Made by a program: the position numbers and the translations under genes. From a virus (lineage: Duplodnaviria > Caudoviricetes), in IMG/VR virus record IMGVR_UViG_3300032030_000041, positions 1-64,000 of that record: a stretch of 64,000 nt of DNA. The stretch is one strand, 5' to 3'. The notes under the pieces are model-generated. The model ran no database searches, was not told where the DNA came from, and saw nothing but the letters and a program-made list of their open reading frames with translations. Positions 16,964-62,068 of this stretch are shown piece by piece (positions within the stretch are counted from its first letter, which is position 1; each line of letters starts with the position of its first letter).

Positions 16964-18256
16964 ATGAAAAAACCATATTCATTAGATTACACCATTGAAA
17001 GAGACACCGATCGTCTAAAGTTAGTTGAGGGGATTTTAGATACTTTGGATCACGATCCATCTGAAACCGATATAGAGCAAATGGCCACCTACATTCTATA
17101 CGGCAAAGATGAAAATGGACTTTCCTCTTTGCGCCGAGGCGAAGTCTATGATAACTCCAAACGCTATAATTCCTTTAAAACTTCCGATGACTATGTGGTA
17201 TCGCTTGATGAGATACTGGAAAATCCAGCAACCGACGAGCAAGAGTTTAGAAGTGCATACAAGCGCGACGTATATAAAAAATCTACCCCAGTTATTAGGC
17301 GTCCAAAGTACGACAAAAAAACTGGTGAACTTATTGACCCAGGAGACTCCGATATTCCAGGCATGATAGAACTATGGGAACGCCTTGACCATTTCGACAA
17401 ATGGATTCATATTTTACAAGGCAAATTGCCGCCAGACGAGAACTTTCTTCTCTTTGAAGACGATTATCGTCTTTACCGCCTAAAGCATAACCTAATTGAT
17501 ATGAAAAGAACGCAATACTATTTGAAAGATGTGTATAAGCCGCAGCTTCATTTCCAAAAACTAGATCATCCAAAAGCTCAATTTTATGATTGGGATGGCG
17601 CCGCAGCCTATTGGATTCCTTACGCAGAGTGGGAGTAGCGTGTATCCCATTCCTATACAACTCGCATTTCGCGCAACCTAGCAGACTATGAGACGCGAGG
17701 GGAGGGGGATAACTTAGAGGTAAAATGGGTTATATGCGTCCATAACTTTGATTGGGAGAATCCTAAGCATGTTTACGCACTTATGAATCATTATCTACCG
17801 CTAAAGGAGCAGCTAAAGGATAAGTTGGATACATACGGGCGCTGCCTTATTTGGGATTTAGAGCGTTACGTAGAAATGACCCCATTAACTCCAATTCGCC
17901 GCGCCATTGTAGATAAGGTAATGCAGCAAACGCCGCGAGAAGATATACGCGACCAACTAATGCAGGAATTCGGCTTTACTTACAATACATTTTATTTAAG
18001 TACAATTATTGCTAACGATATTCCAAAAGAAATTGCGCGAACCGCCGCAAAGCATCGAATATTGTGTGAAACGCCCGCCAGCCAACGTAAAGTTTGTAAA
18101 CGGTGCGGCCGCATTTTGCCTCGTCATCCACTCTTTTTTACTAAAAATTCGGGCCGCAAAGACGGTTTCCAATCGCGCTGCCGCGAATGTGAGCGCCAAC
18201 TTCGTATTGAGAAAGGGGAGGTGTTGAGAATAGATGGAAGACAAAAAACTACGTAA
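16964..18256 (+). CDS. hypothetical protein with C-terminal Zn finger, 430 aa (1 TAG read through)
   Basis: ORFs 16964-17638 and 17783-18256 are in frame across one TAG; CKRC...CREC. Confidence 0.8.
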
Positions 18257-19178
18257 ATGTTTGCGCTGCAAGCAGGAAAAACCAATTACTGCGTTTGCCG
18301 AAACCTCTTGCCGCTTCTTTCCAGGCCATCGTTCCTTATATTGTACCTCATGCCTTGAGGCCACAACGCCACAAGACAATTTAGGCGAAGTTGACCGCGT
18401 GCTGCGCTGGCTCGACCTTCCATTCGATCTTAACAAATGGACATAGCTGTATGAGCAACATAAAGACCATACATTTACAGCCTACTTTAACTTACTATAT
18501 GACGACCATTATGAAGGTTTAAAATGGCAGGATGAAAATACTAGATGGGAAATAGCGCGAAAAGAGGGCACAATTAATGATGAGATTAAGGCCATTTCTG
18601 AAGGGCAAATGCGCCATTTAAAAAAGGTATGGGGTGCCGAATACGAACCACATGAACTTCTTTGGCTTGAAGACTTTTATAATAAGATCGTTGCCACCCA
18701 AAATGTATCAACTCCTATTCTATAGGAAAAAGCCCGTGATTTTTGTGAGCTTTAGTTACATATAAAGTAGGGACTGCGCCAAAACATTGATGTTTCTAAG
18801 ATGATGAAGCAAGCAGATGATATTGTTAAGACATACCATTTTGAGGCATCGAATGCTAAATCTGCGGCGGATTTTGAATCTGTTGGAGAGCTTATGGTTT
18901 ACTATGGTAAAAAAGGATGGCATCCAAATTGGCATACTGAACCGCAAGACTCCGTTGACTTTATGATGGAAAATATTCAAAACTATTTGAAGCGGCTTGT
19001 AATGAATGAAGGCAATTTTGCTGAATAGGTTGAAGATAAACGTGCTCGATATAATATGACTGAACGTCTTGAAGAAATTGAAAATGAAAAAGTTGATTTC
19101 GACGAAACAGCAGATATTGAATATGAAGATGATGGCGCGCTCGCGGCAGAACTCTAGGGAGGGGGCTTAGATGAATGA
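18234..19178 (+). CDS. Zn-finger protein, candidate terminase small subunit, 314 aa (TAG recoded)
   Basis: Frame open to TGA at 19178 apart from TAGs; CLRC...CTSC; directly upstream of TerL. Confidence 0.65.
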
Positions 19179-20961
19179 AAATATAGAAGAGTCCCTGTCT
19201 CGTGATGGTACTATTATTGAAAAAGGCGTTACGCTAACACGCGACTTTTTGGATAAAAATGAAAATCTATTTACTAAGTATTTAAACTTATGGATATTAT
19301 ATCCTGACCTATTGTTAGATACAATATAGGATACAATTGATGCAAAGAACTTCCATTTAATGCCATTTCAGCGAATAGAATTGCGTGCGGCAATGAGATA
19401 TAGGTATACGTTTTGGACTGCTACGCGTGCTACCTCTAAATCATTTACAGCATACCTAAGTGCTTTTTTGCGTGCTGTGCTCTTACCCGGCTCTACTATA
19501 ATGATTGCGTCGGATACCAAGGGTACGGTTATTAAAATAGCAGAAGCGAAATTTGAAGAAATTTTCCGGCATTGGCCCTTATTGCGTAAAGAGTTAAAAA
19601 CGCGCGCAGATGATGGAAAGACTGGACAAAAAGCAAGTACCAACTACTATGAGTTGTATTTAAAAAATGGCAGTATGATTTCTGTTGTCTCTAAAGATAC
19701 ATCTCGTGGATTGCGTGCGACTGCAGCAATTCTAGAAGAAGCAGCACTAATTGAGGAAGTGCCATTTAATGAAGTGCTTTGGCCGCAAATGAACATCGCT
19801 CGTAGAGAAGTCGATGGCAGCCTAAATCCAGACGAGCCATCGGCAACGCAGATTTTTATTACTACTGCCGCCTCTCGTACAGTATTTATGTATTAGAAAC
19901 TTATTGAGATTACCGTAAACGCAGTCTTGCGTCCAAAAGAGTACTTCTCATGGGGTCTTTCTTATGAAGTACCATTACATTATGGACTGCTAGATAAAGC
20001 GACATTAATGGATCAACGTTATTCTAATACGGTTTCTGAAGAATCCTTCGCGCGAGAATCGCTATCAATATGGAGCGGTAATAATGCCGATGCTTGGCTA
20101 GATAGCCGCAGACTCAGCCATTATCGCCGCTTATTAAAATGCGAACGTAAGGCTATGATTAATGATAGCAATCCCGATGCTTGGTATGAAATTGGAATTG
20201 ACGTAGGTAGATATCATGCAAATACAGCTATTATGGTCATTAAGGTGCTACCAGGCGAATAGCGCTTTAGGAAAAATGTCGTATATACTGAAGTAATTAA
20301 TGGTGAAAACTTTATTACTGAGTAGGCGCCACGCATTAAAAAGTTAATTTCATTATATAACCCGCGCGAAGTTGTTATTGACGGTAACGGCCCAGGTATT
20401 GGTTTAATGGACGCTATGGCGCTGCCTTCTTACAGCAGCCATACGGGCGAATAGTTCCCTGCTTATTTTACCTTTAACAATGAAAATCATTTACCGCCAG
20501 AATTAAAGGCTGAACAAGAAACACCTGTACCTGCTTATAATGCTATTTTATATGATATTAAGGCTAGTGCTTCAAATGAAGATGAAATCCATTCTGCATT
20601 TCTTTCTGCAATTAATACTGGTTCAGTATCGTTTCTAGCGCATGAAAGAATTGTTAAAGAAAAAATAATGAAAACGAAAAAAGGTGCCAAAATGACGCCT
20701 TACGATAGGCGCATATTCTTGATGCCATATGAAATGACTTCTCGACTGATGGACGAGCTTAATAACTTGCGTCTAAAGCCAACAGGAGTCGAAAATAAAT
20801 TTAAGGTTGAAAGAATTTCTAGGTCAATTGAGAAAGACCGCTTTAGTTCTCTAGAATACGCTTTGTATAGAATTAAATACTATGAAGATAAAGAAATTTT
20901 TAAAAAACGGAAGAAAAAGATAAATCAATATGCTTTCTTCAGTCCTAAAAGTAGGGGGTGA
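19171..20961 (+). CDS. terL: terminase large subunit, 596 aa (TAG recoded)
   Basis: Walker A-like ATRATSKS, Walker B ILEEA, FITTA motif III, nuclease GIDVG, IDGNG and KDRFS; fragments in one frame. Confidence 0.9.
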
Positions 20962-20966
20962 GGTTT

Positions 20967-22490
20967 ATGAGTTCTTTCAAACCATATGTTAATTTCGCTA
21001 AACAAAATCGTATCATGCCGGTACCAATTGATAGCTATCGTGTTAGTCGCTATGGCGCGAATAGCCGTATCAATTCAGTAGGACAACACGATTTTTCTTT
21101 AGAAGAAATTGAACAAATAATTCGTTCTGGCGATTTAGATTCACTACGACAATTATCTCGCTATTATTATCGTACAAACAGTGAATATCGCGAGAACATT
21201 GATTACCTAGCCACCTTACCTTACTATGATACAATTGTCACCCCTATCTTTGAGGAAGGCAAGGGTTCTAAGGCTTAGATTATTAAAGCATTCTATAATG
21301 CTTGTACTTTTGTAGACGATTTAGATATCCGCAATACTTTAACTCGTATTACAAAAGCATGGTTAATTAATGGTATGTATAATGGTATTCTGCGTCAGGT
21401 TGGGAGTAAATTTGCTATTTAGGATCTCCCACTAGAATTTTGCCGCACGAGATTCAAGGATTATAATAATTTAAATATTCTTGAATTTAACGTAACCTAT
21501 TTTGAACGTAAGTTTTCTGATGATGAGGAAAGAGCGCGCATACTTTTAACCTTTCCAGAGGTTGTACAAAAGGCGTGGAGAAATTGGAAAGACAAGAAAA
21601 CAAGTGATCCATGGGTTATGATTTCATCCGCGGACGGCGGCATAAATTTTTGTTTTGCTGATGACCAGACACCATTACTCATTGCTGCAATACCTCAATT
21701 ACGTAAACTTAAAGACGCAGTTGGCCGCGAAGAAAAGCGGGATGAAAACGAACTATACAAATTACTAATTTAGCGCATGCCGATAGATAATAACGGCGAA
21801 TTAGTATTTGAATTAGAAGAAGTTGAAGATATCCACGCAGGAGTAGCGGAAATGCTCAAAGACTTAGATACTGTAGATGTATTGACTACTTTTGGAGAAA
21901 CTACATTAGAGAATCTTTAGGATTCCTCTGCGGCATCTCAGTCTGCAGATCGTATTGATAAGTATGCAAAGAATGCTTGGAATGCTCTAGGAAGAGGCTC
22001 AATTCTGTTTAACGCTGAGAATAGTTCTACTCTCGCGTATAGCATAAAGAAGGATGAAAGTCTTATGAAAGGTTATCTAAACGTATATAGTACGTGGATA
22101 AGATTTCAAATTAATCATAGGTTTTCCCGTACCGGGCTATAGTTTGGCTTTGAAATCTTACCCACTACTATGTTTAACATTAAAGATTACCAGAGCATGT
22201 ATTTCTAGGGTGCACAGTTTGGCTATTCTAAGATGCGTGCTGGCGTTGCTAGCGGCATTGATCAATTAGCTTAGTTAAGTCTAATGAATTTTGAAAATGA
22301 CTTCCTTCACATGGCGGATAAGATGATACCATTATAGTCTGCCTATACTACTCCTGGTGGCGAAAATTCAGGTAGTGGCGGTGGAAGTAAAAAAACTTCG
22401 GTAACTGTGAACAATCAAGGTGGCCGTCCAGAGTTACCCGATGAAGAGAAATCTGAGAAGACTCAGGCCAATATTGCGGCCATGGGTTAA
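20967..22490 (+). CDS. portal protein, 507 aa (TAG recoded)
   Basis: Follows TerL; one frame to TAA; PL[Q]SAYT...GGRP C-terminus typical of portals. Confidence 0.8.
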
Positions 22491-22501
22491 GGAGAATTAA
22501 G

Positions 22502-23779
22502 ATGGATAGACAAGTACCAATTTATTTTGATAGCGTTGTCATCGCTTCTCCTACAACGCCAATTTCTAGTAGTAACCCAGAGCTAGGCCGCTTAAAGGTT
22601 GGTGTTTTCACAAAATATGGGAATCGTAATGGTTCTTATATTACAGATGAAATCGCAGAACAACTTATTGCCAGCGCGACCATGGGCAACACCCCAGTTG
22701 TTGGATTTTTTGACCCAGAATCCAAAAGCTGGGCAGGGCACACGGGTCCACTACTAGCTAGCGCTTATGGCTATGTAGAATCATTTGAAGGGTGGCAGCC
22801 TTTTACTGATACAGATGGAGTTGAGCGCGAATACGCTGTCTTTTCTGTAGTAATTTTTAACAAATATTTCGATGAAGCTAAATTAGTTGTTGGATAGCAT
22901 CAATCAATGGAATTAGATAGGGATAGTATTGAAGGAGACTGGGCGAATATTGATGATAATGAATATTTCGTCTATACTAAAGCTTCTATAATGGGGCTAT
23001 GCATTATAGGAGAACATGAGCCTTGCTTCTCTGTATCTACATTCTTCTCTAAGGACGATGATAAATATGCATCCCAATATGAAAAGTTCTCTTCACTTTT
23101 ATCCGGCTTGAAGGAATTAGTCGAAGAGACGGAAAAACAACCAAAGGGAGGAGAACAACCTATGGACAATTTTGAAAATAACTTAGGTACTCCCGCAGAA
23201 GAGCCTGTAGCTCAGGTTGCAGATGTCGAGCAGCCCGTTGAGGATAGCACGCCTACTGCAATTGAACCAGAACTACCTTTAGTAGATGATCCGGCTTTAG
23301 CAGAGCCAGCAGACGAATCTGCGGATGAGCCAATTGATTTTGAAGCTCTTCAGAACTCTATTACGGAATTAACAAACACTAATACTGAGCTAAGTACCAA
23401 TTATGAGAATGCTCAGAATCGTATTGCTGAGTTAGAGCAGGCACTTGCCGATGCTACTGCCGCAAATGAAACCGCAAATAATCGCATTACTGAATTAGAA
23501 AATTCTATTGCTCAGTATGAAGCTGCACAAGCCGCGATTGAAGAAGAGAAGAAAAATCAGTTAATTGAAAAATATGAAAAAGTTATTGACGAAGAAGAAA
23601 TTACTAAAGTTCGCGCGGAAGTTTCTAACTTTACTTATAGCGAGCTAGAAAGTAAACTCGCCATTAGCTTTGCTAACAAGCAGATGATGACTGAAGAAAA
23701 TACAGTTAATGTAATTCCACAGCCTGAACCTGCAGTAAATGAATTCGCACTTCTCATTGAGAAGTACCGTAAGAATTAA
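22502..23779 (+). CDS. prohead protease-scaffold fusion, 425 aa (1 TAG)
   Basis: 22502-22897 and 22907-23779 in frame; GH, QSME and GLCIIG..EPCF protease-like motifs; acidic coiled-coil C-half. Confidence 0.8.
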
Positions 23780-23792
23780 GGAGGAATATGTT

Positions 23793-24443: not shown

Positions 24444-24460
24444 TAGGAGGTGCGAACGTT

Positions 24461-25579
24461 ATGGATAATCTACACATTTTAATGAACGGCGTATTTGGAC
24501 GTAAAGTTCCTGCTGAGTTCGCAGCCGCCGATTATGATTATGAAGCTGCTCTACGTGATGAGCTAGCTAAGTTAATGACTAAGGATGGACGTCATTTTAA
24601 TCGTCATGTCTTTAATCGTAATAAGGATGACATTTTTGAGCTACTTGAGCAGAATCTAGAGGAAGTTCTACCACAGAGTGTACAGTCTGCTCTAGATATG
24701 TTCGTTGAGACTCTACATTTCTAGCAGGGCACTCGTCCTGAGTTCCGTGTAACTCGTGGCAAGCAGAGGGGCAAGCAGTTTGTTACCCGTGCTACTGAGT
24801 CTGGTAACTATGAGACCTTTAGACTAGATCGTGATCGTTTTGATGTTTACATTCAGGCCATTGGTGGTGCTGGATACGTAGACTTTGAGCGTTATCTCGA
24901 TGGTCTAGAGAGCATGACCGATATCTATGAAGTAATTCAGGAAGGTATTGTTGATCGTCTATTTGAGATGGTTCAGGAATGCTTACTAGCTTCTTGGAAT
25001 GCTGCTGGTCGTCCTTCTCGCAATAAGGTTGCGGCTAATACCTTTAATCCTATTGCTATGAAGAAGCTCTGCAACACTGTTGCGGCTTATGGCACTCCAG
25101 TTATTTATTGCACACCTGAATTTGCTGCTGAGATGGTAAATGCTATTGTTTATAGTAATGCTAATCCAAGCTGGGTTGGTGGAAAGATTTCTGATCAGGA
25201 TATGATTGATATTCGTGAACGCGGATACATTGGCAAGTTCCAGGGTGTATCAGTTATTGTTATGCCTCAGTCCTTTACTGATGAAACCAACTCTAAGACT
25301 GTTATGAATCCATCTTTTGCTTATGTCCTACCATCTGGTAAGGAAAAGCTAATCAAGATGGCTTTCGAAGGATCTCCATACTTCCGTGAGTGGGATGATC
25401 ATGAGGGCGACAATTCTTTCACCCTACAGGGCTATGTAAAGGTTGGTGTCGGCATGTTCTCTATGCCCAACTATTGGGGAATCTATTACAATGCGGCACT
25501 AGATGCAGACAGCGGCTGGAAAGCTTACAACCAGAGTCTAGTTCCGAAGTTCGACGACAATACTAACAACAATCAGTAA
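24461..25579 (+). CDS. major capsid protein, 372 aa (single TAG at 24722-24724)
   Basis: Two ORFs in frame; size, position, strongly biased codons, downstream terminator. Confidence 0.85.
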
Positions 25580-25594
25580 TTGATTGATAACCAC

Positions 25595-26107: not shown

Positions 26108-26590
26108 ATGGCGACCCCTTTCTTAAAAGTTTATGACGCTTTTTTGGCGCGGATAACCGCAGATGAATGGACATTGGAGGAAGAGCTCGCCATTGTTGAA
26201 CGAGATTGGCAAGAACTTCTCAAAATGGCTATTGAACGTTTTAAATATCCACGTATTAGTTTAGAAATGGAAGAGTTAGAACAGTCAGAAAGTGATAATC
26301 CTATTACAGTGATGCAATTTAAAGAGGATTTAACTAATGCAGAAATATAGATGCTTGCGCTTTATATGAAGCATGAATGGGTTAAACGCTGTATTGCTAG
26401 TTGGGAAAATATACGTTAGTTATATGTTGACAGTGATTATTCTCAAGCTAACCACCTTGATAAATTAAATAAGCTTGAATCTCAAGTCGCGCTAGAGGTT
26501 CATAAAGCAGAGGGACGATATGATAGATCGCGTAACCATAGTCCAGCCGCAATCTTTAGACGATTGGCCGGAAAGCAAAAATATATCTAA
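26108..26590 (+). CDS. putative head-tail adaptor, 160 aa (2 TAG)
   Basis: Frame continues through TAGs to TAA at 26590; position; DYSQANHL motif. Confidence 0.65.
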
Positions 26591-26855
26591 TGAAACTTTT
26601 GATGGTTATTTAAATAAATTAAAAGGCCGATTATATGGTCTTTTATGTGAGCGCGAAAAAGGTGGCGAATGGGTTAAATTTCTTGATTCTATTACAATAG
26701 AATTAATAGGACTTGGCGCGAATAGTATTAATTGGTGGGCATTGATAGGAAAAATCAATTCCTTGCGCTATTTAACATATGAACACTTTAGGCGTACTAT
26801 ATTTGAAAGTATGCATTTAGTGGATGGATTAGAGGCTCCAGATGAATTATCTTGA
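26520..26855 (+). CDS. hypothetical neck-region protein, 111 aa
   Basis: GAGGG SD; overlaps the upstream gene by 71 bp. Confidence 0.65.
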   Translation: MIDRVTIVQPQSLDDWPESKNISNETFDGYLNKLKGRLYGLLCEREKGGEWVKFLDSITIELIGLGANSINWWALIGKINSLRYLTYEHFRRTIFESMHLVDGLEAPDELS

Positions 26856-28077: not shown

Positions 28078-28087
28078 GGTGAATAAA

Positions 28088-29360: not shown

Positions 29361-29377
29361 TTTGGGAGGTAACTTTT

Positions 29378-30334: not shown

Positions 30335-30347
30335 TTAACTAACAAAT

Positions 30348-30378
30348 CCTAGGGACTCTTCGGAGTCCCTGGGTTTTT
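30348..30378 (+). terminator. intrinsic terminator
   Basis: CCTAGGGACTC-TTCG-GAGTCCCTGGG plus T run. Confidence 0.85.
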
Positions 30379-30396
30379 ATTAGGTAGGTGAAAACC

Positions 30397-47801: not shown

Positions 47802-47823
47802 GGAGCAAAAGGAGGAATAAATC

Positions 47824-53406: not shown

Positions 53407-53798
53407 TACTCATCTTCAAGATTTAAGAATGGCTCAAGGAATGTAATATCAGTAGGTGTAAAATCTAGTTGTTCAATATCAGAAAACTTAATAGGATCGG
53501 CTTCCACGGTTGTTTCTTCTGCGACTAGCTTATTCATTTCTTCTACAAATAGCTTCATATGAGCTTCATCAAACTGATATTCGTTTTTTTCATTCAATTC
53601 AAATGAGCCATCTTCTTTCTTCTTAGCATATTTTTCTAGTAAGCTATTTCTTACTTCATTATATGATGTAAGAACTTCTTCTAGCCTCTTTAGAAGACGA
53701 CCAATACGAAATGCTACGCGTCCAGGCAACGCTTGATTACTTAACTTCTGTAATACTTCTTGCCCTTCCAATATATCGCGTAAAGTTACTCTAATCAT
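53406..53798 (-). CDS. hypothetical protein (DUF1617-like), 130 aa
   Basis: GGGGAG SD; ATGA overlap; resemblance from memory only. Confidence 0.7.
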   Translation of the reverse strand: MIRVTLRDILEGQEVLQKLSNQALPGRVAFRIGRLLKRLEEVLTSYNEVRNSLLEKYAKKKEDGSFELNEKNEYQFDEAHMKLFVEEMNKLVAEETTVEADPIKFSDIEQLDFTPTDITFLEPFLNLEDE

Positions 53799-54544
53799 AT
53801 ATCTTCTCCCCAAGTACTGTGTACTTTAATTTTATTACAAAAATATTTTCCAATGCAAATAGCATCGGCTTCATCTTCGGTGCAGTCCATTTTGTACCAA
53901 ATCTTTACTTTGGCTTGTGCCTATTTTTTCTTAGACTCTCGATGGGCGTCACCATCATTCACGCCGCAGTAAGAACGCCATTCGCTGGGATATACTAAAT
54001 CATGGTCTATACAGGCTTCAAATAGAACATCTAAAATTACGCCCTGCAAGTTTGCTAATGTTTGGAATGTTTTAACTTGCGCCTAAGTTTCTCTTTGTCC
54101 ATACTTCTATAGCTAAATATTTTCAACCCCAACAAAGTCTGGCTCCCATTCCTTTAATGCGGCTTTAAGCCAATTTTTCACTTGATTTATGCGCTCAGTA
54201 GCTGGTAATGTAGCACTAGTTTTGAAAGTACCATATCCAACTAACGTTCTATTATCATAAATAGCATATCCTGTAGTTCCAGTAGCTGCATCAAGAGCAA
54301 GAATACGCGTTGTATTTTCACTCTTTTGCGGCACTTTATTTTTTTTAACTTTATATGGATCACCGGCCATACAGATATCACACATTTTATGTTTGCGCCA
54401 ATATTCAAATGTTTGCGACTGTGCATGACCCTATGGACACTACATTTCCAAAGGTGTTTTTAAATTTTTATACTCTTCACTAATTAATTTCCATCCTTCA
54501 GATTCTAATGCGTTCTATACCGTATATATATTAATTTTAGCCAT
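53795..54544 (-). CDS. RuvC-like Holliday junction resolvase with N-terminal Zn-binding segment, 249 aa (7 TAG)
   Basis: ILALDAATGTTGYA, VENI[Q]L[Q], PSEWR and EDEADAICIG motifs; coupled to both neighbours. Confidence 0.85.
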
Positions 54545-55338
54545 TATACTCCGGTACTCCCGAAGCCGCCTTCGCCGCGATCGGAATCCTCTAGATTTTC
54601 AACTATATTGGCCTTAAAACGGTAAGAAGGCATAATTAACATCTGGGCAATTCTGTCACCCTTATGAATGTACAAATTATCTTCAGATGTATTATCATAT
54701 AGAACGCCAAGTTCTCCACGATATCCGCTATCAATAAGTCCTACACTATTACTGAGTCTGAATGGTGTCTTTGCTCCAATGCTTGAGCGCGGTAGAATCA
54801 TCGCTAGCCATCCTTCTGGTAGTTGAATATGTACACCAGTACGAATCTTATTACCATATGTATGAGCATTTAGATCAGTGTCTTCTAATGCATATAGGTC
54901 TGCGGCGGCATCGCTATCATGTGCATATGTGGGGACTTGGGCGCCATCATCTAACTGAATAGGTAATTCAATCGCATAAGAATGATATTTATCAAAAGCT
55001 GTATCAAAAATATTGAAAATCTTTTCAACAACGATATCTACTACTTTACGCTTATTTCCGGTGAAAATTTTATCGCCATATACAATAGTATTTACAAACT
55101 CTTTGAGCGCGCCAGCAGAATCATTAGCTTCAGCCTTAGTTGTTCCTTGATTCTCTAGATTTTGTATAATCTGATTAACTGCTTGATTTACTTTCTCTTG
55201 AGAAAGTGAGTCATTAATTCCTTTAATAATTGAATTGGTAGTTTCATCTGTAAAAATAGCATCATCCATTTCTGTGAGTGAATGAATAGAATCTACAAAT
55301 GATTTAATACCTGGATCCATTAATAATTCATCGTTCAT
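54544..55338 (-). CDS. dut: trimeric dUTPase with ~125-aa N-terminal extension
   Basis: AADL, PRSSIG, GLIDSGYRGE, GDRIAQ and RGEGGFGSTG motifs. Confidence 0.92.
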   Translation of the reverse strand: MNDELLMDPGIKSFVDSIHSLTEMDDAIFTDETTNSIIKGINDSLSQEKVNQAVNQIIQNLENQGTTKAEANDSAGALKEFVNTIVYGDKIFTGNKRKVVDIVVEKIFNIFDTAFDKYHSYAIELPIQLDDGAQVPTYAHDSDAAADLYALEDTDLNAHTYGNKIRTGVHIQLPEGWLAMILPRSSIGAKTPFRLSNSVGLIDSGYRGELGVLYDNTSEDNLYIHKGDRIAQMLIMPSYRFKANIVENLEDSDRGEGGFGSTGV

Positions 55339-55349
55339 TTATATCCTCC

Positions 55350-55559
55350 TTAGTCGCCAAAGGTTTTTTCAGTAAGAACAATAAACCATTGATCGACTAT
55401 TTCTCCTTTAGACTTTTTTGTTTTAAGCGTATAGCTAGACTTAGTGAGGGTATACCCGCCAGAAATCTGCTGATCTTTAGCATCCTCAATCATACCCATA
55501 GCTTCTTCTTCGGTATCAACCCTATAAGTGTCAGTTGTCTTCAGTTTCAGCATCGCCAT
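55350..55559 (-). CDS. hypothetical protein, 69 aa
   Basis: Intact ORF in the operon. Confidence 0.75.
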   Translation of the reverse strand: MAMLKLKTTDTYRVDTEEEAMGMIEDAKDQQISGGYTLTKSSYTLKTKKSKGEIVDQWFIVLTEKTFGD

Positions 55560-55881
55560 CTTCTTCAATCTCCTTTGCTTTCTTTTCATTTAGTACTCTT
55601 AGTTTCTGAATTAAATCTATGTAATTAAGCTTTGCGGCAGTCTCATTAATCTCGTCAATCTGAGATTTTTGCGCCGTTTGTGCTTTCTTACCTTTATTCT
55701 TTTTAGCTAATGCACGTCTTTGCGCGCGATTTAGCTTGACGCCGCCATTGATTTTTTGTACTGTGAAATCAGTAATCTTCTTCATGATTTCTTCTTCAGT
55801 ATCTGCGCCAACGAGCTTTTCTGCTTTTGCATAATCCATCTTTTGGATTTCTGCAAAGCGTTTAATTAGATCATTTTCCAT
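55531..55881 (-). CDS. hypothetical protein, 116 aa (NRAQRRA motif)
   Basis: GAGGT SD; TAATG coupling. Confidence 0.8.
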   Translation of the reverse strand: MENDLIKRFAEIQKMDYAKAEKLVGADTEEEIMKKITDFTVQKINGGVKLNRAQRRALAKKNKGKKAQTAQKSQIDEINETAAKLNYIDLIQKLRVLNEKKAKEIEEDGDAETEDN

Positions 55882-56366
55882 TATAAATCTACCTCTTTTA
55901 ATTTAACAGGCTCTTTTGGTGGCGTTGTTTCATGTTCATTCCAAAGAGTAATGTACCAATGAGTTGGATCGCCCTCACACTGTAATTTATGCTCAATTCT
56001 AAAATGATTAAAGTTAATTTCAGGCTCAATGAAGGCTTCATCTTTTCCAGTCTTAGCACTACGCCAGAAATTATCGGCTTGGATAGTCCATTTTGACCAA
56101 TGATATAGAGTAAGTAGTTCATAAACTTTTGGCGATAAGACTGGCATTTCCAATATCACTTTCCATCCGGTACTAGAATCATACTCTTCATAATATTGAG
56201 TAAGCTGATCAAAATAAATTTCACACTTTTCTTTACTGTCCCACAATCTATCATAAGCGGTTAATAGTATATTTGGAACTTCTTTCTTTCCATACCAATT
56301 TTCACGCAAATATTTCTAAATAGGATGCTCATCGTTTTCTATATCAAGTCTTTTAAAATATTTCAT
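55881..56366 (-). CDS. hypothetical protein, 161 aa (1 TAG)
   Basis: GGAGG SD before ATG 56366; in frame with ORF 55881-56309. Confidence 0.75.
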
Positions 56367-57401
56367 TTATCCTCCCGCATTTCGGTTATATCCGAATGTC
56401 TAAGTATCAAAAAATTCAATATAATATTTTTCAAGCTCAGAAAGCTTATCTTTATCACAATAAGTAATTATTTCAATTGACCAGTTCCAGAAACCAGTTT
56501 TCAATATTTCATGGTGTACTGCTTGATCTGCAATACTTTTAATGCCAATTGATGATTTGAAATGATCCGCAATTCGTTTCTTTACGTCAGTACTTTTCCC
56601 AATATAAGCCTTCCCGCTATCTAAATTAGTTAACTTATAAATACCGGGTTCTGCCTTGACTTCAATTCTCTTAAAAGTATCATCCAAATAAGGTTTTACA
56701 TACTCTGCCCAAACTAGCTTTGATATAATGTCTGGATGCTGGACTTTCGCGGCAACAGTTGTAAGTAAGAATTCAATATCTTCACGATACTCTTCTGGAA
56801 GCTATATCGTATAGAACAACTTAGCCTATTTATCTTTCTCATATTGTAGAAGTGGCTCTCTAGCACTTAAGAAGCGTTCTCGCTGCTGTTCTTCAAGAAG
56901 CTAGTATTCTTTTACTTTTCCCTATGCTTCTTCAATTTGCTCGGCCATCCATTTCTTCGCATCTTCAGCCTACTTATCGCATTCTTTTAAAGTCTTATCT
57001 AATTCAGCCTTCAGAACCGATTTCTTCTCATTAAATGTTTCATCCAATGATTCCTGGCGGCGTTGCCGCTATTCATCCATTAACTAATCAATTTCCTACA
57101 TACGTTCATTAACTAGATTATGATATTCGGCGCGCGCATCAGTTAAACTAGTTTGCGCGCTATCCAACTAATTTCGTATGTCTGTTAATTTCTAATATTC
57201 TGTATTATACTTAATTGTGGTATCAAGTAACTTACTCTCATAGGCACTGAGTGCTTTCTTTTGGAAGCTAACCTAATCTTTTGCTTCTTCAAGTTGCCGA
57301 TTATATTCATTAAGTAAACCTTGATCAACTTGACGCTTCTGATAAAGTAAATACCCCAGAACTCCAATAATAATTAAGCAAACAATCAGTATAGCAATCA
57401 T
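56367..57401 (-). CDS. membrane-anchored coiled-coil GIY-YIG nuclease, 344 aa (about a dozen TAG)
   Basis: N-terminal TM MIAILIVCLIIIGVLGYLLY, long coiled coil, GIY...YIG...R...E...GYN. Confidence 0.8.
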
Positions 57402-57428
57402 ACCATCACCTTTTTCTCTTGATACTTA

Positions 57429-57457
57429 ATTATATCAGAATTCTGGGGAAATGTCAA
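57429..57457 (-). promoter_or_regulatory. consensus sigmaA promoter
   Basis: TTGACA-N17-TATAAT with TG extension. Confidence 0.85.
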
Positions 57458-58005
57458 ATATTTGGTTCTATAAGATTACTAAAAATAACTCCACCAAATA
57501 TATTACCAATAATTGTACCCAATAATGGAAATCCAATAGTACCAGCTGCAATCATATAATAAGCATCAGCAATGCAGTGGTTAAAACCGCCAAGAATAAA
57601 ACCCATCACACACGGAAAGCACATCCATAGTGGAGACTTTTCATATGTAGCAATTGACATTAGCATACCACATCCAATTCCCTTTATCGCGGCTTCCCAT
57701 ATGGGTTGTGACATTTTAGTCGTGGCAATAGCTGCAGAAGCACTATTATGTGCGAGAAGTGCCATCAATGATACTCCTACTATATTTCCAAGCAAAACTA
57801 TCAAATAAAAATACCAAGGATATTGCTTAGTTACCATAAATTGGATTTTGCCAGTAAATAGGTTTAGCTTATATATTCGAACTGTAAGTAATCCACATGA
57901 AAATAGAAAAGCGCCAACTATTGCGTTAGGAGCTGCTAGATACATCCAGCAGCCTAATGCAATTGCCATTCCGGCAAATATTGACTTATATATGTCCTTC
58001 TTCAT
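57454..58005 (-). CDS. formate/nitrite transporter (FNT) family channel, 183 aa
   Basis: Multiple TM helices; AG..IALG, LFTG, GIGCG.L and GFNHCIAD motifs. Confidence 0.8.
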   Translation of the reverse strand: MKKDIYKSIFAGMAIALGCWMYLAAPNAIVGAFLFSCGLLTVRIYKLNLFTGKIQFMVTKQYPWYFYLIVLLGNIVGVSLMALLAHNSASAAIATTKMSQPIWEAAIKGIGCGMLMSIATYEKSPLWMCFPCVMGFILGGFNHCIADAYYMIAAGTIGFPLLGTIIGNIFGGVIFSNLIEPNI

Positions 58006-58486
58006 AATATTTCTCCATATTAATTATTCGTTGGTTTGAAGAACCACGTAACGGCAATGTCGTATCTCTTTTATCCTGCTCATAACGACCATCTATTAAG
58101 CAGGTAATATTATGTAAAATATGATCTAAAGTACGATTATCGCGCTTCTCTAATTCTTCCATTGTATAACCTGTCCATAAATAAATTTTTAAATCTGGAT
58201 AATCTAGCTTACACCAACCAATTAAATCCATCACATCTTCTAAGTTTTCATCGGCTAGTGGCTCGCCGCCAAGAATGCTAAGAGAGCGCATTACTCCATT
58301 CTTATTAAGCTTCTGCATAATCTCTTGGCGTATATCTAATCCATATTCCTCGCCATAATTAAAATCTTGTGCTTCGGGATTGTGACATCCGGGGCAATGG
58401 AAATGACATCCCGAAAAATACACAGAGAGGGAGATACCTGGCGCTGCCGCGGTATCATCCCAATAGATTCCTGCAATCTTACTCAT
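57986..58486 (-). CDS. nrdG: anaerobic ribonucleotide reductase activase (radical SAM)
   Basis: CHFHCPGCHN, LGGEPL, IDGRY and RGSSNQ motifs; adjacent to nrdD. Confidence 0.93.
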   Translation of the reverse strand: MSKIAGIYWDDTAAAPGISLSVYFSGCHFHCPGCHNPEAQDFNYGEEYGLDIRQEIMQKLNKNGVMRSLSILGGEPLADENLEDVMDLIGWCKLDYPDLKIYLWTGYTMEELEKRDNRTLDHILHNITCLIDGRYEQDKRDTTLPLRGSSNQRIINMEKYYEEGHI

Positions 58487-60777
58487 TAGTGTATATGCTT
58501 GACTCTTGCTTCAACTTCTTTCTGTTTGCCCCAGTTGAAAGCATCTTTATATGAGCCTGTTAAATAGCCAGTTACTCTACGAAGTCTTGAAATGTTCTTA
58601 CTGCCGCACTCAGGACAGCTTTCACCAATTTCATCCTGATAGCCACAATCATTACACATATCTAGCGGCACGTTCAAAGCGAAATACGGTATATCATGGT
58701 CCATAGCATAATTTACTATAGTTTCAAGCGCAGGAATGTTATTCTTTACACCAGAAGGAACTTCTACATATGTAATACATCCAGCACTAGAATATCCAGT
58801 TAGCTGGCTCTCAATATCAATTTTATCAAATACAGAAATATCATGCCATACTGGTACATGGATACTATTAGTAAAGTATTCATGATCAGATACATTTTCA
58901 ATTTCGCCGTACTTAGCTTTAAACTTCTTCATTGCTGTGTAACAAAGATTTTCAGCAGGAGTGTAATATACTCCAAAATTAAGATGGTATTCTTTCTTAA
59001 ACTCCGCACATCTATCTTTAAATAGTTGTTCGATCCTCTTAGCTAGCTCCATTCCTTTTTCTGTAGTATGGTCGCAACCAATTAAGATTTGAAGCGTTTC
59101 CGCAAGTCCCAGCTGCCCAATAACAATAGTGCCATGTTTCAATGCTGAGCGGATACCTTCTTCTGGATGATAACCTAGCATTGTGTTATTTTCATACATG
59201 AACTTGGCGGATGCGGGAGACTGCTTACAAATCCATTCAAAGCGTTCAAGGAGCATATCTTTAGCTTCATGGATTTTTCTATTTAAAATCATCATAAAAG
59301 TTTCTACATCATCATAATCTTCTCTTGTCCAATTAGCAGGATGCTGGAAGTCATTAAAATGATGATCATTAATTGCTTTTGCTTCCATTGCTAATGTTGG
59401 CATAATAATTGTAACGGGACAAATATTACCGCGGCCATCTTTACGTTGTGGATTTACGCCTGGCTCTGCATTTATGTCTGCGCCATTCGCTGTACGGCAT
59501 CCCATTGTGCTGAAATACGTTGTTGGATCATTTGGATCGTATCCTGCATTTCCAGACCAGTCAATATTAGCATAGTTGGGATAAATACGTTTAGCAGTAG
59601 ATTCAAGCGCGAGTTGATATAAGTCATAGTTTGGATCGCCAGGTGCGCGATTAATGCCCTTTCCAAGTTGGAAAATACCACATGGGAATATAGGCGTTTT
59701 ATGATATTTACCTACACCTTTTATCGAGCCTTCCAGCAATGCCTTAATTACCATACGGCCTTCGGGTAATGTACAAGTACCATAGTTAATTGATGTGAAA
59801 GGCAATTGATTTCCGCTGCGAGATTGAAGCGTGTTAAGGTTGTGATACATTCCCTCGACTGCTTGCTGAAGTTCGCGTTCTGTCATATCCATTGCATAAT
59901 TATAGCATTTTTCACCATATGATTTAGCATCAGGCGAATCAATTTCTGGAATCCCATATTTAGGATTATATAATTTTACATCATAGTTATCTTTTCCAAT
60001 CGTACCTTCTATATACATTAAGCCATCACGCATATGCTTCCAGAAACTTTTTCTCACATAAGGAACCATAGTCCAATCCAAATGAGTCGCACTAACGCCG
60101 CCAAACTGCATTAGAGATTGAAGCTGGAATATAACTGCCACTAGTTGAAAAGCAGTATTGATGGAATTAGCTGGGCGTACATCCGTTTGTCTAGTGTTAA
60201 AACCCTTTGCTAACAAATCATCAAATGGAATACTTAAACAATTATGCATACCTACCGCATAAGCACTTAAATCATGAATATAAATCTCATTATTCAAGTG
60301 ATTATTTCGTGCCATATCAGACATGCAGAAATCAAGTGCATATTGCTTCATCATTTCATCAGAAGCTTCACCAACGCGGCCGCCAAATGAATGTTCATCT
60401 ATATTAGCATTTTGATTCTGTACATTAGAAGCTCTTAATTTTTCACTAATCGCGCGAATAAATTCAGTAGAGTTTGCGCGCATAATACCATGCTTATAAC
60501 GATACTTAATATAAGCTTTGCCGACTTTTAAGTCATAGTCAGTTAGATAATCTTCAACTAAATCTTGAATGTCTTCTACGCCCATTAGGTCATTTGACTC
60601 TACAACCATTTGTTGTGCAATTGTTTCAACCAAATTAGCAATCTCGGTTGCATATTGTGGATAACCGGTTTCTTTAGGATATACCTCATGCCACGCCTTT
60701 GTAATGGCTGTTTCAATTTTTTCCTTATCGAATAATGCAAGTTCTCCAGTTCGTTTACGAATTTGTAAATCCATCAT
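58486..60777 (-). CDS. nrdD: class III anaerobic ribonucleoside-triphosphate reductase with ATP cone
   Basis: ATP cone, IYIHD, MGCR, TPAEN, CxxC-CxxC and RRVTGYL glycyl-radical motif. Confidence 0.95.
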   Translation of the reverse strand: MMDLQIRKRTGELALFDKEKIETAITKAWHEVYPKETGYPQYATEIANLVETIAQQMVVESNDLMGVEDIQDLVEDYLTDYDLKVGKAYIKYRYKHGIMRANSTEFIRAISEKLRASNVQNQNANIDEHSFGGRVGEASDEMMKQYALDFCMSDMARNNHLNNEIYIHDLSAYAVGMHNCLSIPFDDLLAKGFNTRQTDVRPANSINTAFQLVAVIFQLQSLMQFGGVSATHLDWTMVPYVRKSFWKHMRDGLMYIEGTIGKDNYDVKLYNPKYGIPEIDSPDAKSYGEKCYNYAMDMTERELQQAVEGMYHNLNTLQSRSGNQLPFTSINYGTCTLPEGRMVIKALLEGSIKGVGKYHKTPIFPCGIFQLGKGINRAPGDPNYDLYQLALESTAKRIYPNYANIDWSGNAGYDPNDPTTYFSTMGCRTANGADINAEPGVNPQRKDGRGNICPVTIIMPTLAMEAKAINDHHFNDFQHPANWTREDYDDVETFMMILNRKIHEAKDMLLERFEWICKQSPASAKFMYENNTMLGYHPEEGIRSALKHGTIVIGQLGLAETLQILIGCDHTTEKGMELAKRIEQLFKDRCAEFKKEYHLNFGVYYTPAENLCYTAMKKFKAKYGEIENVSDHEYFTNSIHVPVWHDISVFDKIDIESQLTGYSSAGCITYVEVPSGVKNNIPALETIVNYAMDHDIPYFALNVPLDMCNDCGYQDEIGESCPECGSKNISRLRRVTGYLTGSYKDAFNWGKQKEVEARVKHIH

Positions 60778-60779
60778 TC

Positions 60780-60986
60780 TCACTTCCTAAATTTCTTCCC
60801 GCAATAGGGGCATTGACCTTGATCTGAAAAATCATAACTACCACTGTTATGAGGACACATATTTTGTAATTCTTTAATTTCATCTCTAATTACAAACACT
60901 CTATCTTTACGTTCCATTGTCGCTAGAGCGCTGCGTAATTCTTCGCTCAACTTTTGATATTGAGCATAAATATCATTTTCATTCAT
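60780..60986 (-). CDS. small Zn-binding protein (CPH...CPYC), 68 aa
   Basis: GGAGG SD; coupled to both neighbours. Confidence 0.75.
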   Translation of the reverse strand: MNENDIYAQYQKLSEELRSALATMERKDRVFVIRDEIKELQNMCPHNSGSYDFSDQGQCPYCGKKFRK

Positions 60987-62068
60987 TTAATCCATCTGCC
61001 TCCCTTTTGTATTGATGTTAATGTCTGTTTAAATAAATTATCCTGTTGCGGATATTTATCTACTAATATTCTTGCTTGCTCTTTTGCCGCAAGTTTCTCA
61101 GGCACTTTTGTCTTTTTTGGTATCCGTTCATATATCGTTTGTTCTTCTTTTAAGGGGCTTTTAGTCCAGCCTGCTACTAGCTATGAAAGCTCGCGTAATG
61201 GATCATAACATCCAAGTGTTGGTTCTTCATATTTAAGCTTTATTGGAATCTTATTAGCCCAAAATGTATATAGCAAGTTCATTTTATATATGAAATTCTT
61301 GTAATATTCAGTTTGATATTGATATGAGCCGCCAATAGAAAGAAAAATTTGTGAATTAGGCATAATTAATTCTAAAAACTTATTTTTATATTCTTTCATC
61401 ATATATTTAGTCTCATTTAGCGGTACATATATATCTAAGAATACTTCATTACTTTTACTAATAATATCTGTTGTTCTAGCCGCAATAAAATCAGATATTT
61501 TATGGAGCCGTAATGGATGAATAAAATTAATAGAAGATGGTTTATGCTCGCTAATATCTTCTATTATATCTTGCCATCCGGGCTAGAAAAAATCACGATC
61601 ATAAATATAGAAGCGCTTTTGCCGCATAATTGGCGGTATTGGTAATTCCTTTTCTCCAGCAAAACGTCGGTAATAAGAATCTTCGAGTATATGATCTATA
61701 TTTATTTCTTTTGCGCCAGCCTAATATTTTTCTTTTAACAATCGCCCATATATATTTGGTTTGGGCAATGTATAATCTATTAGCTCATTTTGAAATGGTA
61801 CATATTTCTTATTAGTAAAAGCTGATCCACCATATATTACATTAGTAGCCTACTTAAAGGCATCTGGTACTGTAATATAATTATCATTTTCACTAAAGAC
61901 ATATATTTTATCATATCCAGTAAACTAAACCTCTTCAAGCCCAATAATACGGCAATATATATTTTCTTCATGTTTATAATATTCCGCGAGCTTCATAATT
62001 TCTAAATTAGGAGGCGGAAGAATGAGATCCGTCGCCTGCTGCCAATGTAAGTCTACAAGCCCTATCAT
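60983..62068 (-). CDS. hypothetical protein resembling the N-terminus of phage radical-SAM-like proteins, 361 aa (5 TAG)
   Basis: MIGLVD...PNLEIMKLAEYYK...YDKIY...YGGSAF; ATGA overlaps at both ends; no CxxxCxxC seen. Confidence 0.7.

What the first reader, a model, noticed from the sequence alone, without database searches (positions are those of the whole stretch)
16964..62068. Amber (TAG) stop codon reassigned to glutamine across packaging, virion and selected replication-operon genes
Seen: fragments of terminase, portal, capsid, TMP, Dit, tail tip, RuvC and GIY-YIG are separated by in-frame TAGs, rejoin in frame, and end in TAA/TGA that overlap or abut the next start. Gln is inferred from contexts where such proteins usually have Q (RuvC ENI*L*, portal I*DLP and PL*SAYT, tail ITSG*LDT). 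Established: code-15 recoding biased toward late genes is known in gut phages such as crAss-like and Lak phages. Here it appears in a sigmaA/DnaE-type siphophage. The suppressor tRNA and any release-factor functions must lie outside the window.
Basis: partly seen in the sequence, partly recalled or inferred. Interest (0 to 1): 0.85.

Follow-up and report, generated by a model that had tools for sequence, protein, structure and literature searches.

The report
Phage reads TAG stop as glutamine
This contig is about half the genome of a large ruminant-gut phage that reads the stop codon TAG as glutamine in most packaging, virion and a few nuclease genes; the trick is already published for gut phages, including distant relatives, so the case is clear but not new.

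Summary
With TAG read through, window 16964-62068 becomes a compact phage late module. It includes a 4,854-aa tape measure with 123 in-frame TAGs and no in-frame TAA or TGA.

TAG means glutamine, on three lines of evidence:
- In 23 relatives without in-frame TAG, 46.7% of cells at our TAG columns are Gln. Background is 4.1%, and our own CAA/CAG columns give 51.8%.
- Four isolated, host-assigned phages annotated in the standard code have Gln at five TerL and portal positions.
- Against a relative about 90% identical in DNA, TAG exchanges mainly with CAA and CAG.

Replication genes are TAG-free. So are the probable high-copy virion genes, except for one TAG in the capsid gene.

The 95-kb contig holds no tRNA-CUA, release factor or aminoacyl-tRNA synthetase, but it is only about half a genome. 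The complete 188-kb relative carries 21 tRNAs, including a tRNA-CUA, in the part missing here. tRNA-CUA was found in 8 of 10 recoded relatives and 0 of 5 non-recoded ones.

This is code 15, already published for gut phages, including DnaE-type siphophages (phAss-1). It is a new member of a known kind.

The relatives' suppressor has an extra arm that copies the Gln anticodon loop. This scan has reported that design, and the TAG avoidance in high-copy genes, on other genomes.

The parts
16964..18256 (+). Sigma-factor-like gene at the head of the late block. It has one in-frame TAG at residue 225, upstream of the region that matches sigma factors.
   Evidence: phrog_5767 sigma factor over residues 260-411. 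TAG position. The close relative G001 has 3 TAGs in this gene.
19069..20961 (+). Large terminase (YonF-like), 6 in-frame TAGs.
   Evidence: tblastn to annotated terminase large subunits of Geobacillus virus E3 and Enterococcus phage H1. TAG residues 276 and 419 align to Gln in isolated standard-code phages. Residues 87, 419 and 462 are mostly Gln in relatives without in-frame TAG.
20958..22490 (+). Portal protein, 8 in-frame TAGs.
   Evidence: phrog_2739 over residues 36-505. Six of the 8 TAG columns are mostly Gln in the 23 relatives without in-frame TAG. Residues 155, 272 and 460 are Gln in isolated phages.
22502..23779 (+). YonD-like head protein (scaffold candidate), 1 TAG at residue 132.
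   Evidence: phrog_3313 spans residues 21-400. The TAG column is Gln in 22 of 22 relatives without in-frame TAG.
24461..25579 (+). Major capsid-like protein (YonB family). It has 1 TAG at a variable position and otherwise uses only CAG for Gln.
   Evidence: phrog_4088 over residues 20-342. PF27364 YonB on the homologue in relatives. CAA 0% and CAG 4.0%. The TAG column is Pro in 20 of 20 relatives without in-frame TAG, and the G001 copy has no TAG.
26108..31272 (+). Neck and tail genes. TAG-bearing: 26108-26590 (2), 26779-28077 (6), 28079-28594 YomW-like (3), 28581-29360 YomV-like (7), 30388-31272 tube paralogue (6). They flank the TAG-free tail tube gene 29378-30334.
   Evidence: YomW, YomV and YomU_Tube Pfam labels on the relatives' genes. 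YomV TAG columns 42, 74, 131 and 227 are Gln in relatives without in-frame TAG.
31337..45901 (+). Tape measure protein, 4,854 aa, 123 in-frame TAGs (2.5% of codons), no in-frame TAA or TGA.
   Evidence: PF10145 PhageMin_Tail over residues 454-665. A relative has a 4,611-aa homologue.
45909..53355 (+). Two distal tail genes: 630 aa with 8 TAGs and 1,843 aa with 35 TAGs. The 'Dit' and 'tail tip' labels were not confirmed by any family match.
   Evidence: No Pfam or annotated PHROG hit. TAG positions are partly shared with G001.
53795..54544 (-). RuvC-like Holliday junction resolvase, 7 in-frame TAGs. It sits among TAG-free nucleotide-metabolism genes.
   Evidence: PF02075 over residues 81-230 and phrog_827. 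The G001 homologue has 8 TAGs, 2 of them shared.
56367..57401 (-). Protein with an N-terminal membrane/coiled-coil part and a C-terminal GIY-YIG nuclease domain, 12 in-frame TAGs.
   Evidence: PF01541 over residues 252-333. Homing-endonuclease PHROGs and a weak Rz-like spanin hit. TAG positions.
60983..62068 (-). Gene of unknown function, 361 aa, 5 in-frame TAGs.
   Evidence: No family hit. The G001 homologue has 5 TAGs, 3 of them shared.
54544..60783 (-). TAG-free standard-code neighbours: dUTPase 54544-55338, NrdG 57986-58486, NrdD 58486-60783, and small ORFs.
   Evidence: The TAG nine codons into the longer NrdD frame lies before the ATP-cone domain and may be upstream of the true start.
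62065..64000 (-). 3' part of the DnaE-type polymerase gene (1,321 aa, runs to 66030), TAG-free. It marks the start of the TAG-free replication block.
   Evidence: PF14579 and PF17657. 0 TAGs in 1,321 codons in both this phage and G001.

Best explanation
The contig is about half the genome of a roughly 188-kb siphophage with an SPbeta-like virion module. It comes from ruminant guts and probably infects a Clostridia host. It uses genetic code 15 for part of its genes.

UAG is decoded as glutamine in packaging, neck, tail and tape measure genes, and in three genes on the replication side: a RuvC resolvase, a GIY-YIG protein and one gene of unknown function. Replication and nucleotide-metabolism genes are TAG-free. 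The probable high-copy virion genes are also TAG-free, except for one TAG in the capsid gene.

Decoding is most likely done by a phage-encoded tRNA with anticodon CUA. That tRNA would lie in the tRNA array of the genome half that this contig lacks, and the host's glutamine-charging machinery would load it. Early in infection UAG still terminates, so TAG-bearing genes stay silent. Once the suppressor accumulates, they are translated.

What is shown: the recoding itself, the Gln meaning, the distribution across genes, the incompleteness of the contig, and the suppressor in close relatives. What is inferred: that this phage carries the same suppressor, that a host enzyme charges it, and that the switch is temporal.
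For: - ORFs are restored only by TAG read-through.
- Gln meaning, relatives without in-frame TAG: in 23 IMG/VR relatives whose homologous genes have at most one in-frame TAG in over 1,100 aligned codons, Gln occupies 46.7% of 640 cells at our TAG columns. Background is 4.1%, and our own CAA/CAG columns give 51.8%.
- The substitution profile of TAG columns fits Gln far better than any other residue: log-likelihood -4278 against -6489 for the next best.
- Four isolated, host-assigned phages annotated in the standard code have Gln at TerL 276 and 419 and portal 155, 272 and 460.
- Against G001 (about 90% nucleotide identity), our TAGs align to TAG 67, CAA 19 and CAG 15 of 162. The reverse comparison gives 67, 22 and 19 of 164.
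- CAG is depleted in TAG-rich genes: 0.79% against 1.64%.
- The same genes are TAG-bearing or TAG-free in G001.
- The contig maps to G001 26,051 to about 126,000. G001 is 188,358 bp with a 127-bp end overlap.
- The remainder of G001 holds 21 tRNAs, including a tRNA-CUA with a canonical CUCUAAA loop. Its anticodon stem shows compensatory changes between relatives.
- tRNA-CUA was found in 8 of 10 recoded relatives and 0 of 5 non-recoded ones. tRNA-Gln(CUG) was found in 3 of 5 non-recoded and in none of the recoded arrays examined.
- The suppressor's acceptor stem (A1-U72, discriminator G73) matches the phages' own tRNA-Gln(UUG). In G008 all 7 nt are identical.
- The DnaB-like gene (genome 69328-70914) ends in TAG, followed by GGAGAG and the next ATG, and this is conserved in G001. 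TAG therefore still serves as a stop in an early gene.
- Contigs from RNA libraries match the DNA with zero differences across several portal and YomV TAG codons, so there is no sign of RNA editing.
- Published precedent: PMC10607447; bioRxiv 10.1101/2021.08.26.457843; PMC9523058.
Against: - No tRNA-CUA is present anywhere in the 95-kb contig by ARAGORN or Rfam. The suppressor is inferred from relatives.
- No tRNA-CUA was found in two recoded relatives, G003 and G006. Only parts of those records were examined, and G003 is estimated 75% complete.
- About half of our TAG columns are not Gln in relatives. Some are invariant Met, Pro, Ser or Thr there. This matches the behaviour of our sense Gln codons but leaves room for a minor second reading.
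- No peptide evidence exists.
- The temporal switch rests on gene distribution, one TAG stop and promoter-like patterns only.
- TAG as a stop among replication-side ORFs (1 of 20) does not differ significantly from the 10% seen in non-recoded relatives.
Confidence: 0.9

Rival explanations
1. TAG is a sense codon for another amino acid (Ser, Leu, Tyr or pyrrolysine). The suppressors of close relatives are 85-95 nt with a long extra arm, like class II tRNAs, and ARAGORN labels them 'Pyl'.
For: The relatives' tRNA-CUA has a variable region of about 19 nt, and its best Rfam match is the tRNA-Sec model at 27.7 bits, below that model's cut-off. Ser is the second most common residue at our TAG columns, at 8%. 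True Ser/Leu/Tyr-bodied CUA tRNAs exist in other IMG/VR phage contigs.
Against: Gln fills 46.7% of cells at TAG columns, against 8% Ser and under 2.3% each for Leu and Tyr. The Ser signal comes from about three columns. TAG exchanges with CAA and CAG, not with Ser, Leu or Tyr codons. The suppressor's acceptor stem and discriminator match the phage tRNA-Gln rather than G1-C72 or A73 types. The extra arm carries a Gln anticodon-like loop rather than a Ser-type arm. tRNA-Pyl has a very short variable loop, the opposite of what is seen here (general knowledge).
Confidence: 0.03
2. The host itself decodes UAG as Gln, so the phage simply follows its host's code. There is then no switch and no need for a phage suppressor.
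For: The contig has no tRNA-CUA. In the published survey only about 40% of TAG-recoded phages had a detectable suppressor (bioRxiv 10.1101/2021.08.26.457843).
Against: About 9,900 codons of replication and high-copy genes contain no TAG at all. A uniform host code would not predict that. One early gene appears to stop at TAG, with a ribosome-binding site directly after it. Close relatives carry their own tRNA-CUA. Relatives 61-66% identical in the portal use TAG as a stop in about 10% of ORFs. The contig is half a genome.
Confidence: 0.04
3. The TAGs are damage or artefact: a decaying phage remnant, an assembly chimera, or sequencing error. Alternatively, the mRNA is edited back to CAG.
For: None specific. 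This is the generic null for interrupted genes.
Against: Only TAG interrupts the frames, never TAA or TGA, over more than 10,000 codons. 67 TAG positions are shared with a relative about 90% identical in DNA. 53 related IMG/VR loci show the same pattern. The stretch occurs in sheep, goat and bovine gut runs from 12 studies. Contigs from DNA and RNA libraries reproduce TAG codons with zero differences.
Confidence: 0.01

Closest known systems
phAss-1 / proposed Phassvirus and its wider group of human-gut siphophages (Babkin et al. 2023, PMC10607447)
   Same: Large siphophages of 130-140 kb with DnaE-type polymerase and a giant tape measure (about 3,150 aa). TAG = Gln in TerL, portal, tape measure, tail fibre and some DNA-processing genes. 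About 28% of ORFs are recoded. There are many tRNAs including tRNA-Sup-CTA, no dedicated synthetase, a predicted Clostridia host, and both recoded and standard-code members. The phAss-1 portal and TerL are detectable homologues of ours. A 138,252-bp IMG/VR contig, the same length as the paper's ct6IQ4 genome, carries the same long-armed type of CUA tRNA.
   Different: The relationship is only distant: 28.6% portal and 33% TerL identity. Ours comes from ruminant guts and has a larger genome (about 188 kb in the complete relative) and a longer tape measure (4,854 aa). It is not a member of that genus.
Recoded gut phage clades of Borges et al. (bioRxiv 10.1101/2021.08.26.457843), especially the large clades Agate (154 +/- 27 kb) and Sapphire (201 +/- 22 kb)
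   Same: TAG or TGA recoding is concentrated in structural and lysis genes, while the replication machinery mostly uses the standard code. Recoded and standard-code genomes are closely related. Suppressor tRNAs were detected in only about 40% of TAG-recoded genomes. Cattle samples are among the sources. The authors propose a model in which the code switches during infection.
   Different: Membership of a named clade could not be tested because no reference sequences were on hand. No RF2 was found here, whereas two Agate genomes have one.
crAss-like and Lak phages using code 15 (Peters et al. 2022, PMC9523058; Yutin et al. 2021, PMC7886860)
   Same: The same reassignment (UAG to Gln), the same late-gene bias, and phage-encoded tRNA-CUA. 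For crAss-like phages the reading is confirmed by metaproteomics.
   Different: These are unrelated lineages that infect Bacteroidota, with a podovirus-like or jumbo architecture and different replication modules.
SPbeta-like virion module of Bacillota phages (YonB, YonD, YonF, YomU, YomV, YomW families; Enterococcus EF1/H1, Geobacillus E3, Lactococcus 949 group)
   Same: Homologous TerL, portal, capsid, tube and neck proteins in the same gene order.
   Different: Those isolated phages are annotated in the standard code, and their TerL and portal reading frames contain no stop. They served here as independent controls for the meaning of TAG.

Membership tests
Code-15 (TAG to Gln) recoded phage | Conserved essential genes are interrupted only by in-frame TAG and become whole when TAG is read through. 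| tested here: met
   Family matches span the TAGs.
Code-15 (TAG to Gln) recoded phage | TAG positions align with Gln in homologues that use the standard code. | tested here: met
   46.7% Gln against a 4.1% background in 23 relatives without in-frame TAG. Gln at 5 TerL and portal positions in isolated phages. TAG<->CAA/CAG exchange.
Code-15 (TAG to Gln) recoded phage | A phage-encoded suppressor tRNA with anticodon CUA. | tested here: inconclusive
   Absent from the 95-kb contig, which is only about half a genome. Present in the missing half of the complete relative, which is about 90% identical in DNA, and in 8 of 10 recoded relatives.
Code-15 (TAG to Gln) recoded phage | Recoding is concentrated in late, structural and lysis genes, while early and replication genes are compatible with the standard code. 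| tested here: met
   Exceptions are a RuvC resolvase, a GIY-YIG protein and one unknown gene on the replication side. The endolysin of the complete relative has 4 TAGs.
Code-15 (TAG to Gln) recoded phage | Peptides with Gln at TAG positions. | not testable with these tools
   No proteomic data are available here. Published only for crAss-like phages (PMC9523058).
Proposed genus Phassvirus (PMC10607447) | More than 80% nucleotide identity and shared synteny with phAss-1, including the unusual capsid protein of about 1,700 aa. | tested here: not met
   Portal 28.6% and TerL 33% amino-acid identity. No such capsid protein is seen in the window.
Agate or Sapphire clade (bioRxiv 10.1101/2021.08.26.457843) | Placement inside the clade on the large-terminase tree. 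| not tested
   No reference sequences of these clades were available. Genome size, cattle-gut origin and the mix of codes among relatives are compatible.

The most novel reading that the evidence does not exclude
The suppressor that this phage most likely carries in its unassembled half would be a two-armed glutamine amber suppressor. In close relatives, and in dozens of other IMG/VR phage contigs, the tRNA-CUA has a normal CUCUAAA anticodon arm followed by a short extra hairpin. That hairpin's 7-nt loop (mostly CUCUGAA, sometimes CUUUGAA) copies the anticodon loop of tRNA-Gln (CUG or UUG).

If this spare Gln anticodon supplies the identity signal that the host's glutamine-charging enzyme loses when the real anticodon becomes CUA, it would explain how such phages reassign UAG without a synthetase of their own. 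I found no paper that describes this design, but other agents of this scan have reported it on other genomes. It is not in this window or contig.
Probability: 0.35. Interest if true: 0.75.

Novelty: new member of a known kind. Interest (0 to 1): 0.3.

Why it matters
Gene calling: under table 11 this phage's late module is shredded into more than 200 fragments, so automated annotation, protein clustering and taxonomy all fail unless code 15 is used. The contig should be annotated with table 15 and flagged as about 50% complete.

Biology: it adds a ruminant-gut lineage with an SPbeta-like virion module to the known recoded phages. Recoded and non-recoded members of this lineage are 61-66% identical in the portal, and tRNA-CUA appears to have taken the place of tRNA-Gln(CUG) in the tRNA array. 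That makes the lineage a useful natural series for studying how a code change starts. The reassignment itself is not new.

Tried and rejected
- The ARAGORN 'tRNA-Phe(AAA)' at 1102-1175 (-) as a hidden suppressor. It has a GCAAAGC loop without U33, holds no CUA, and has no Rfam match with E-value up to 1. Rejected.
- Two tRNA-Leu-shaped elements at genome 71,590-71,858 (-) as unusual suppressors. The D-arm and T-arm shell is conserved in G001, but the 50-100 nt insert is unrelated and shows no CUA in an anticodon-type loop. Not supported, and left unexplained.
- ARAGORN with introns allowed or lowered thresholds gave only implausible calls.
- TGA or TAA recoding as an explanation for the short-ORF region 1-16.9 kb. 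No alternative code opens it. It is a block of small genes, mostly on the - strand.
- Release factors or aminoacyl-tRNA synthetases. None appeared in Pfam scans of 37 proteins of this contig or 20 of the complete relative. The scan did not cover small ORFs.
- Genome-wide avoidance of TAG as a stop. 1 of 20 replication-side ORFs ends in TAG, against about 10% in non-recoded relatives. The sample is too small to decide.
- The PDB sequence search with RuvC gave nothing.
- Host identification through the phage's xanthine/uracil permease found only two short MAG contigs, labelled Clostridia and Ca. Scatovivens. These may themselves be phage DNA, so this is only a weak hint.
- Depth in RNA libraries is highest over the capsid and tube genes, but contig depth cannot rank expression. 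Not used as evidence.
- The full homologue list from the protein database could not serve as independent evidence, because those relatives had been called with TAG = Q. It was replaced by codon-level analysis.

Full report
**Observation.** Under table 11 the + strand from about 16.9 to 53.4 kb holds only short ORFs. With TAG read through it becomes a tightly packed operon. ORFs of 150 aa or more cover 0.15-0.5 of each 5-kb bin under table 11 and about 1.0 with TAG open. Opening TGA or TAA does not help. The extreme case is 31337-45901: 4,854 codons with 123 TAGs and no TAA or TGA. TAA plus TGA occur at about 0.05 per position on this strand, so such a frame has a chance probability near e^-250. 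On the - strand, three genes among standard-code neighbours also need read-through: 53795-54544, 56367-57401 and 60983-62068.

**Gene identities.**
- 19069-20961 is the large terminase, by homology to annotated TerL of Geobacillus virus E3 and Enterococcus phage H1.
- 20958-22490 is the portal (phrog_2739).
- 24461-25579 is a YonB-type capsid protein, and 29378-30334 is a YomU-type tube protein.
- 31337-45901 is the tape measure (PF10145).
- 53795-54544 is a RuvC resolvase, and 56367-57401 ends in a GIY-YIG domain.
- The 'Dit' and 'tail tip' labels for 45909-53355 could not be confirmed.
- The rest of the contig encodes DnaE, RecJ, DnaB, gyrase A and B, ligase, RNase H, NrdDG, dUTPase, PhoH and ClpP, all without TAG.

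**Which amino acid.** The many full-length homologues in the protein database were themselves called with TAG = Q, so I did not use them. Instead I fetched 80 related IMG/VR loci and compared codons.
- At conserved columns our TAG aligns almost only with CAA, CAG or TAG. For example, TerL 419 gives CAA 44, TAG 26, CAG 12, and portal 321 gives CAA 56, TAG 14, CAG 12.
- Twenty-three relatives have essentially no in-frame TAG. In them, 46.7% of 640 cells at our TAG columns are Gln. Background Gln is 4.1%, and our own CAA/CAG columns give 51.8%. The next residue is Ser at 8%, which comes from about three columns.
- A likelihood comparison of substitution profiles puts Gln far ahead.
- Four isolated phages annotated in the standard code have Gln at TerL 276 and 419 and portal 155, 272 and 460.
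- Against G001, about 90% identical in DNA, our TAGs align to TAG 67, CAA 19 and CAG 15 of 162, and the reverse comparison is symmetrical.
- CAG is halved in TAG-rich genes.

**Distribution across genes.** TAG is 1-3.5% of codons in packaging, neck, tail and tape measure genes and in the three nuclease-side genes. It is absent from about 9,900 codons of replication genes and of certain virion genes. The capsid gene (one TAG), the tube gene, 23739-24443 and 25659-26102 use CAG almost exclusively for Gln (CAA 0-0.9%) and favour AAG for Lys. This pattern looks like translational selection in probable high-copy genes. The same partition holds in G001. RuvC-type resolvases act late, during packaging. 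The exceptions on the replication side therefore fit timing better than position, although this is an inference.

One early gene, the DnaB-like helicase at genome 69328-70914, ends in TAG. The TAG is followed directly by GGAGAG and the ATG of the next gene, with a TAA seven codons further on, and the arrangement is conserved in G001. TAG therefore appears to keep its stop meaning in early genes.

**The suppressor.** ARAGORN and Rfam find no tRNA-CUA anywhere in the 95,086-bp contig. No release factor or synthetase was found either. However, the contig is a fragment.
- It maps to positions 26,051 to about 126,000 of G001 (IMGVR_UViG_3300028833_000063), which is 188,358 bp with a 127-bp end overlap and is rated complete.
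- The part missing here carries 21 tRNAs, among them a tRNA-CUA at G001 183,528-183,615. It lies about 440 nt downstream of a TTGACT-17-TATAAT promoter-like site (pattern match only).
- Across relatives, tRNA-CUA was found in 8 of 10 recoded genomes and 0 of 5 non-recoded ones.
- tRNA-Gln(CUG) was present in 3 of 5 non-recoded arrays and in none of the recoded arrays examined.
- The suppressor's acceptor stem and discriminator match the phages' own tRNA-Gln(UUG).

**An unusual feature of that suppressor.** It is not in this window. It is 85-95 nt long and scores best, though weakly, against the tRNA-Sec model. The reason is an extra hairpin after the anticodon arm. Across sequence types this hairpin has a 2-3 bp stem with 11 different compensating stem versions. 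The stem closes a 7-nt loop that reads CUCUGAA, UUCUGAG, CUCUGAC or CUUUGAA, which is a Gln anticodon loop (CUG in 37 cases, UUG in 3).

Thirty-two of the 40 perfect cases came from a search that required CTGARG, so their loop motif is partly there by construction. The motif was first seen in three divergent types found without that requirement. It also recurred in a search on the anticodon arm alone. I found no paper on this design. Other agents of this scan have described it on other genomes. Its role as an identity decoy for the Gln-charging enzyme is a hypothesis.

**Context and novelty.** The stretch occurs in sheep, goat and bovine gut runs from 12 studies, including RNA libraries. RNA-library contigs reproduce TAG codons exactly, which argues against both artefact and editing. 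The phenomenon is published:
- code 15 in gut phages with a late-gene bias and a proposed mid-infection switch (bioRxiv 10.1101/2021.08.26.457843);
- proteomic proof in crAss-like phages (PMC9523058);
- specifically, DnaE-type siphophages with giant tape measures, many tRNAs and tRNA-Sup-CTA (phAss-1, PMC10607447), to which our portal and TerL are distantly related.

The finding is therefore a well-supported new member of a known kind. The scan has also noted TAG avoidance in high-copy virion genes in related genomes.

**Verdict.** Interest is modest (0.3), because the mechanism class is known and the decisive component, the suppressor, is not on this contig.

Noticed in passing
whole contig (window 1-64000 plus 31 kb beyond): The 95,086-bp record is only about half a genome. 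It aligns to 26,051 to about 126,000 of a 188,358-bp complete relative. The missing half holds a 21-tRNA array, RNA-repair genes (RNA ligase, Thg1-like, RlaP-like), more tail fibres, an NlpC/P60-SH3 lysin with 4 TAGs, and a radical-SAM gene with 8 TAGs close to the suppressor tRNA.
   Followed up: yes
window 23739-24443, 24461-25579, 25659-26102, 29378-30334 (also genome 72995-74317 and 82261-83238): The probable high-copy genes have no TAG (the capsid gene has one) and use CAG almost exclusively for Gln (CAA 0-0.9%), with a strong AAG preference. This contrasts with their TAG-rich, CAA-rich neighbours in the same operon. The same holds in the close relative.
   Followed up: partly
L001:5328-6914 (genome 69328-70914, - strand): The DnaB-like helicase gene ends in TAG, followed directly by GGAGAG and the next gene's ATG, with a TAA seven codons later. 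This is conserved in the relative. TAG seems to act as a stop in this early gene and would be read through harmlessly late in infection.
   Followed up: partly
window 1102-1175 (-): A tRNA-shaped element with canonical D and T arms, but an anticodon stem that closes to a GCAAAGC loop without U33. ARAGORN calls it tRNA-Phe(AAA). Rfam gives no match with E-value up to 1.
   Followed up: partly
L001:7590-7858 (genome 71,590-71,858, - strand): Two RNAs with a tRNA-Leu-type acceptor, D-arm and T-arm shell. Their anticodon and variable region is replaced by unrelated inserts of 50-100 nt. The shell is conserved in the relative but the insert is not. No CUA anticodon loop is present. Function unknown.
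   Followed up: partly
L116:7170-7257, L138:5318-5410, L139:11570-11659 and loci L152-L221: The tRNA-CUA suppressors of relatives carry an extra hairpin whose 7-nt loop copies a Gln anticodon loop (CUG or UUG). The hairpin stems show compensating changes.
   Followed up: yes
L224:2386-2472, L258:1461-1544, L269:2834-2919, L272:948-1035, L274:7318-7407: Other IMG/VR phage contigs carry CUA tRNAs with true Leu/Ser/Tyr-type class II bodies. These hint at amber readings other than Gln in other phages.
   Followed up: no
window 16964-18256: The sigma-factor-like gene that opens the late block has its only TAG (residue 225) upstream of the sigma-like region, and the relative has three TAGs. The full-length factor would therefore be made only once UAG is suppressed, which could act as a feed-forward gate.
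   Followed up: no
window 26779-26835: The first two TAGs of the 26779-28077 frame align with TAA, TGA, TGG or TTG in relatives. They probably lie upstream of the true start, so this gene has 4 real TAGs rather than 6.
   Followed up: partly
window 56367-57401 (-): The GIY-YIG protein has an N-terminal transmembrane and coiled-coil part that weakly matches Rz-like spanins. This is an odd fusion for a homing-type nuclease.
   Followed up: no
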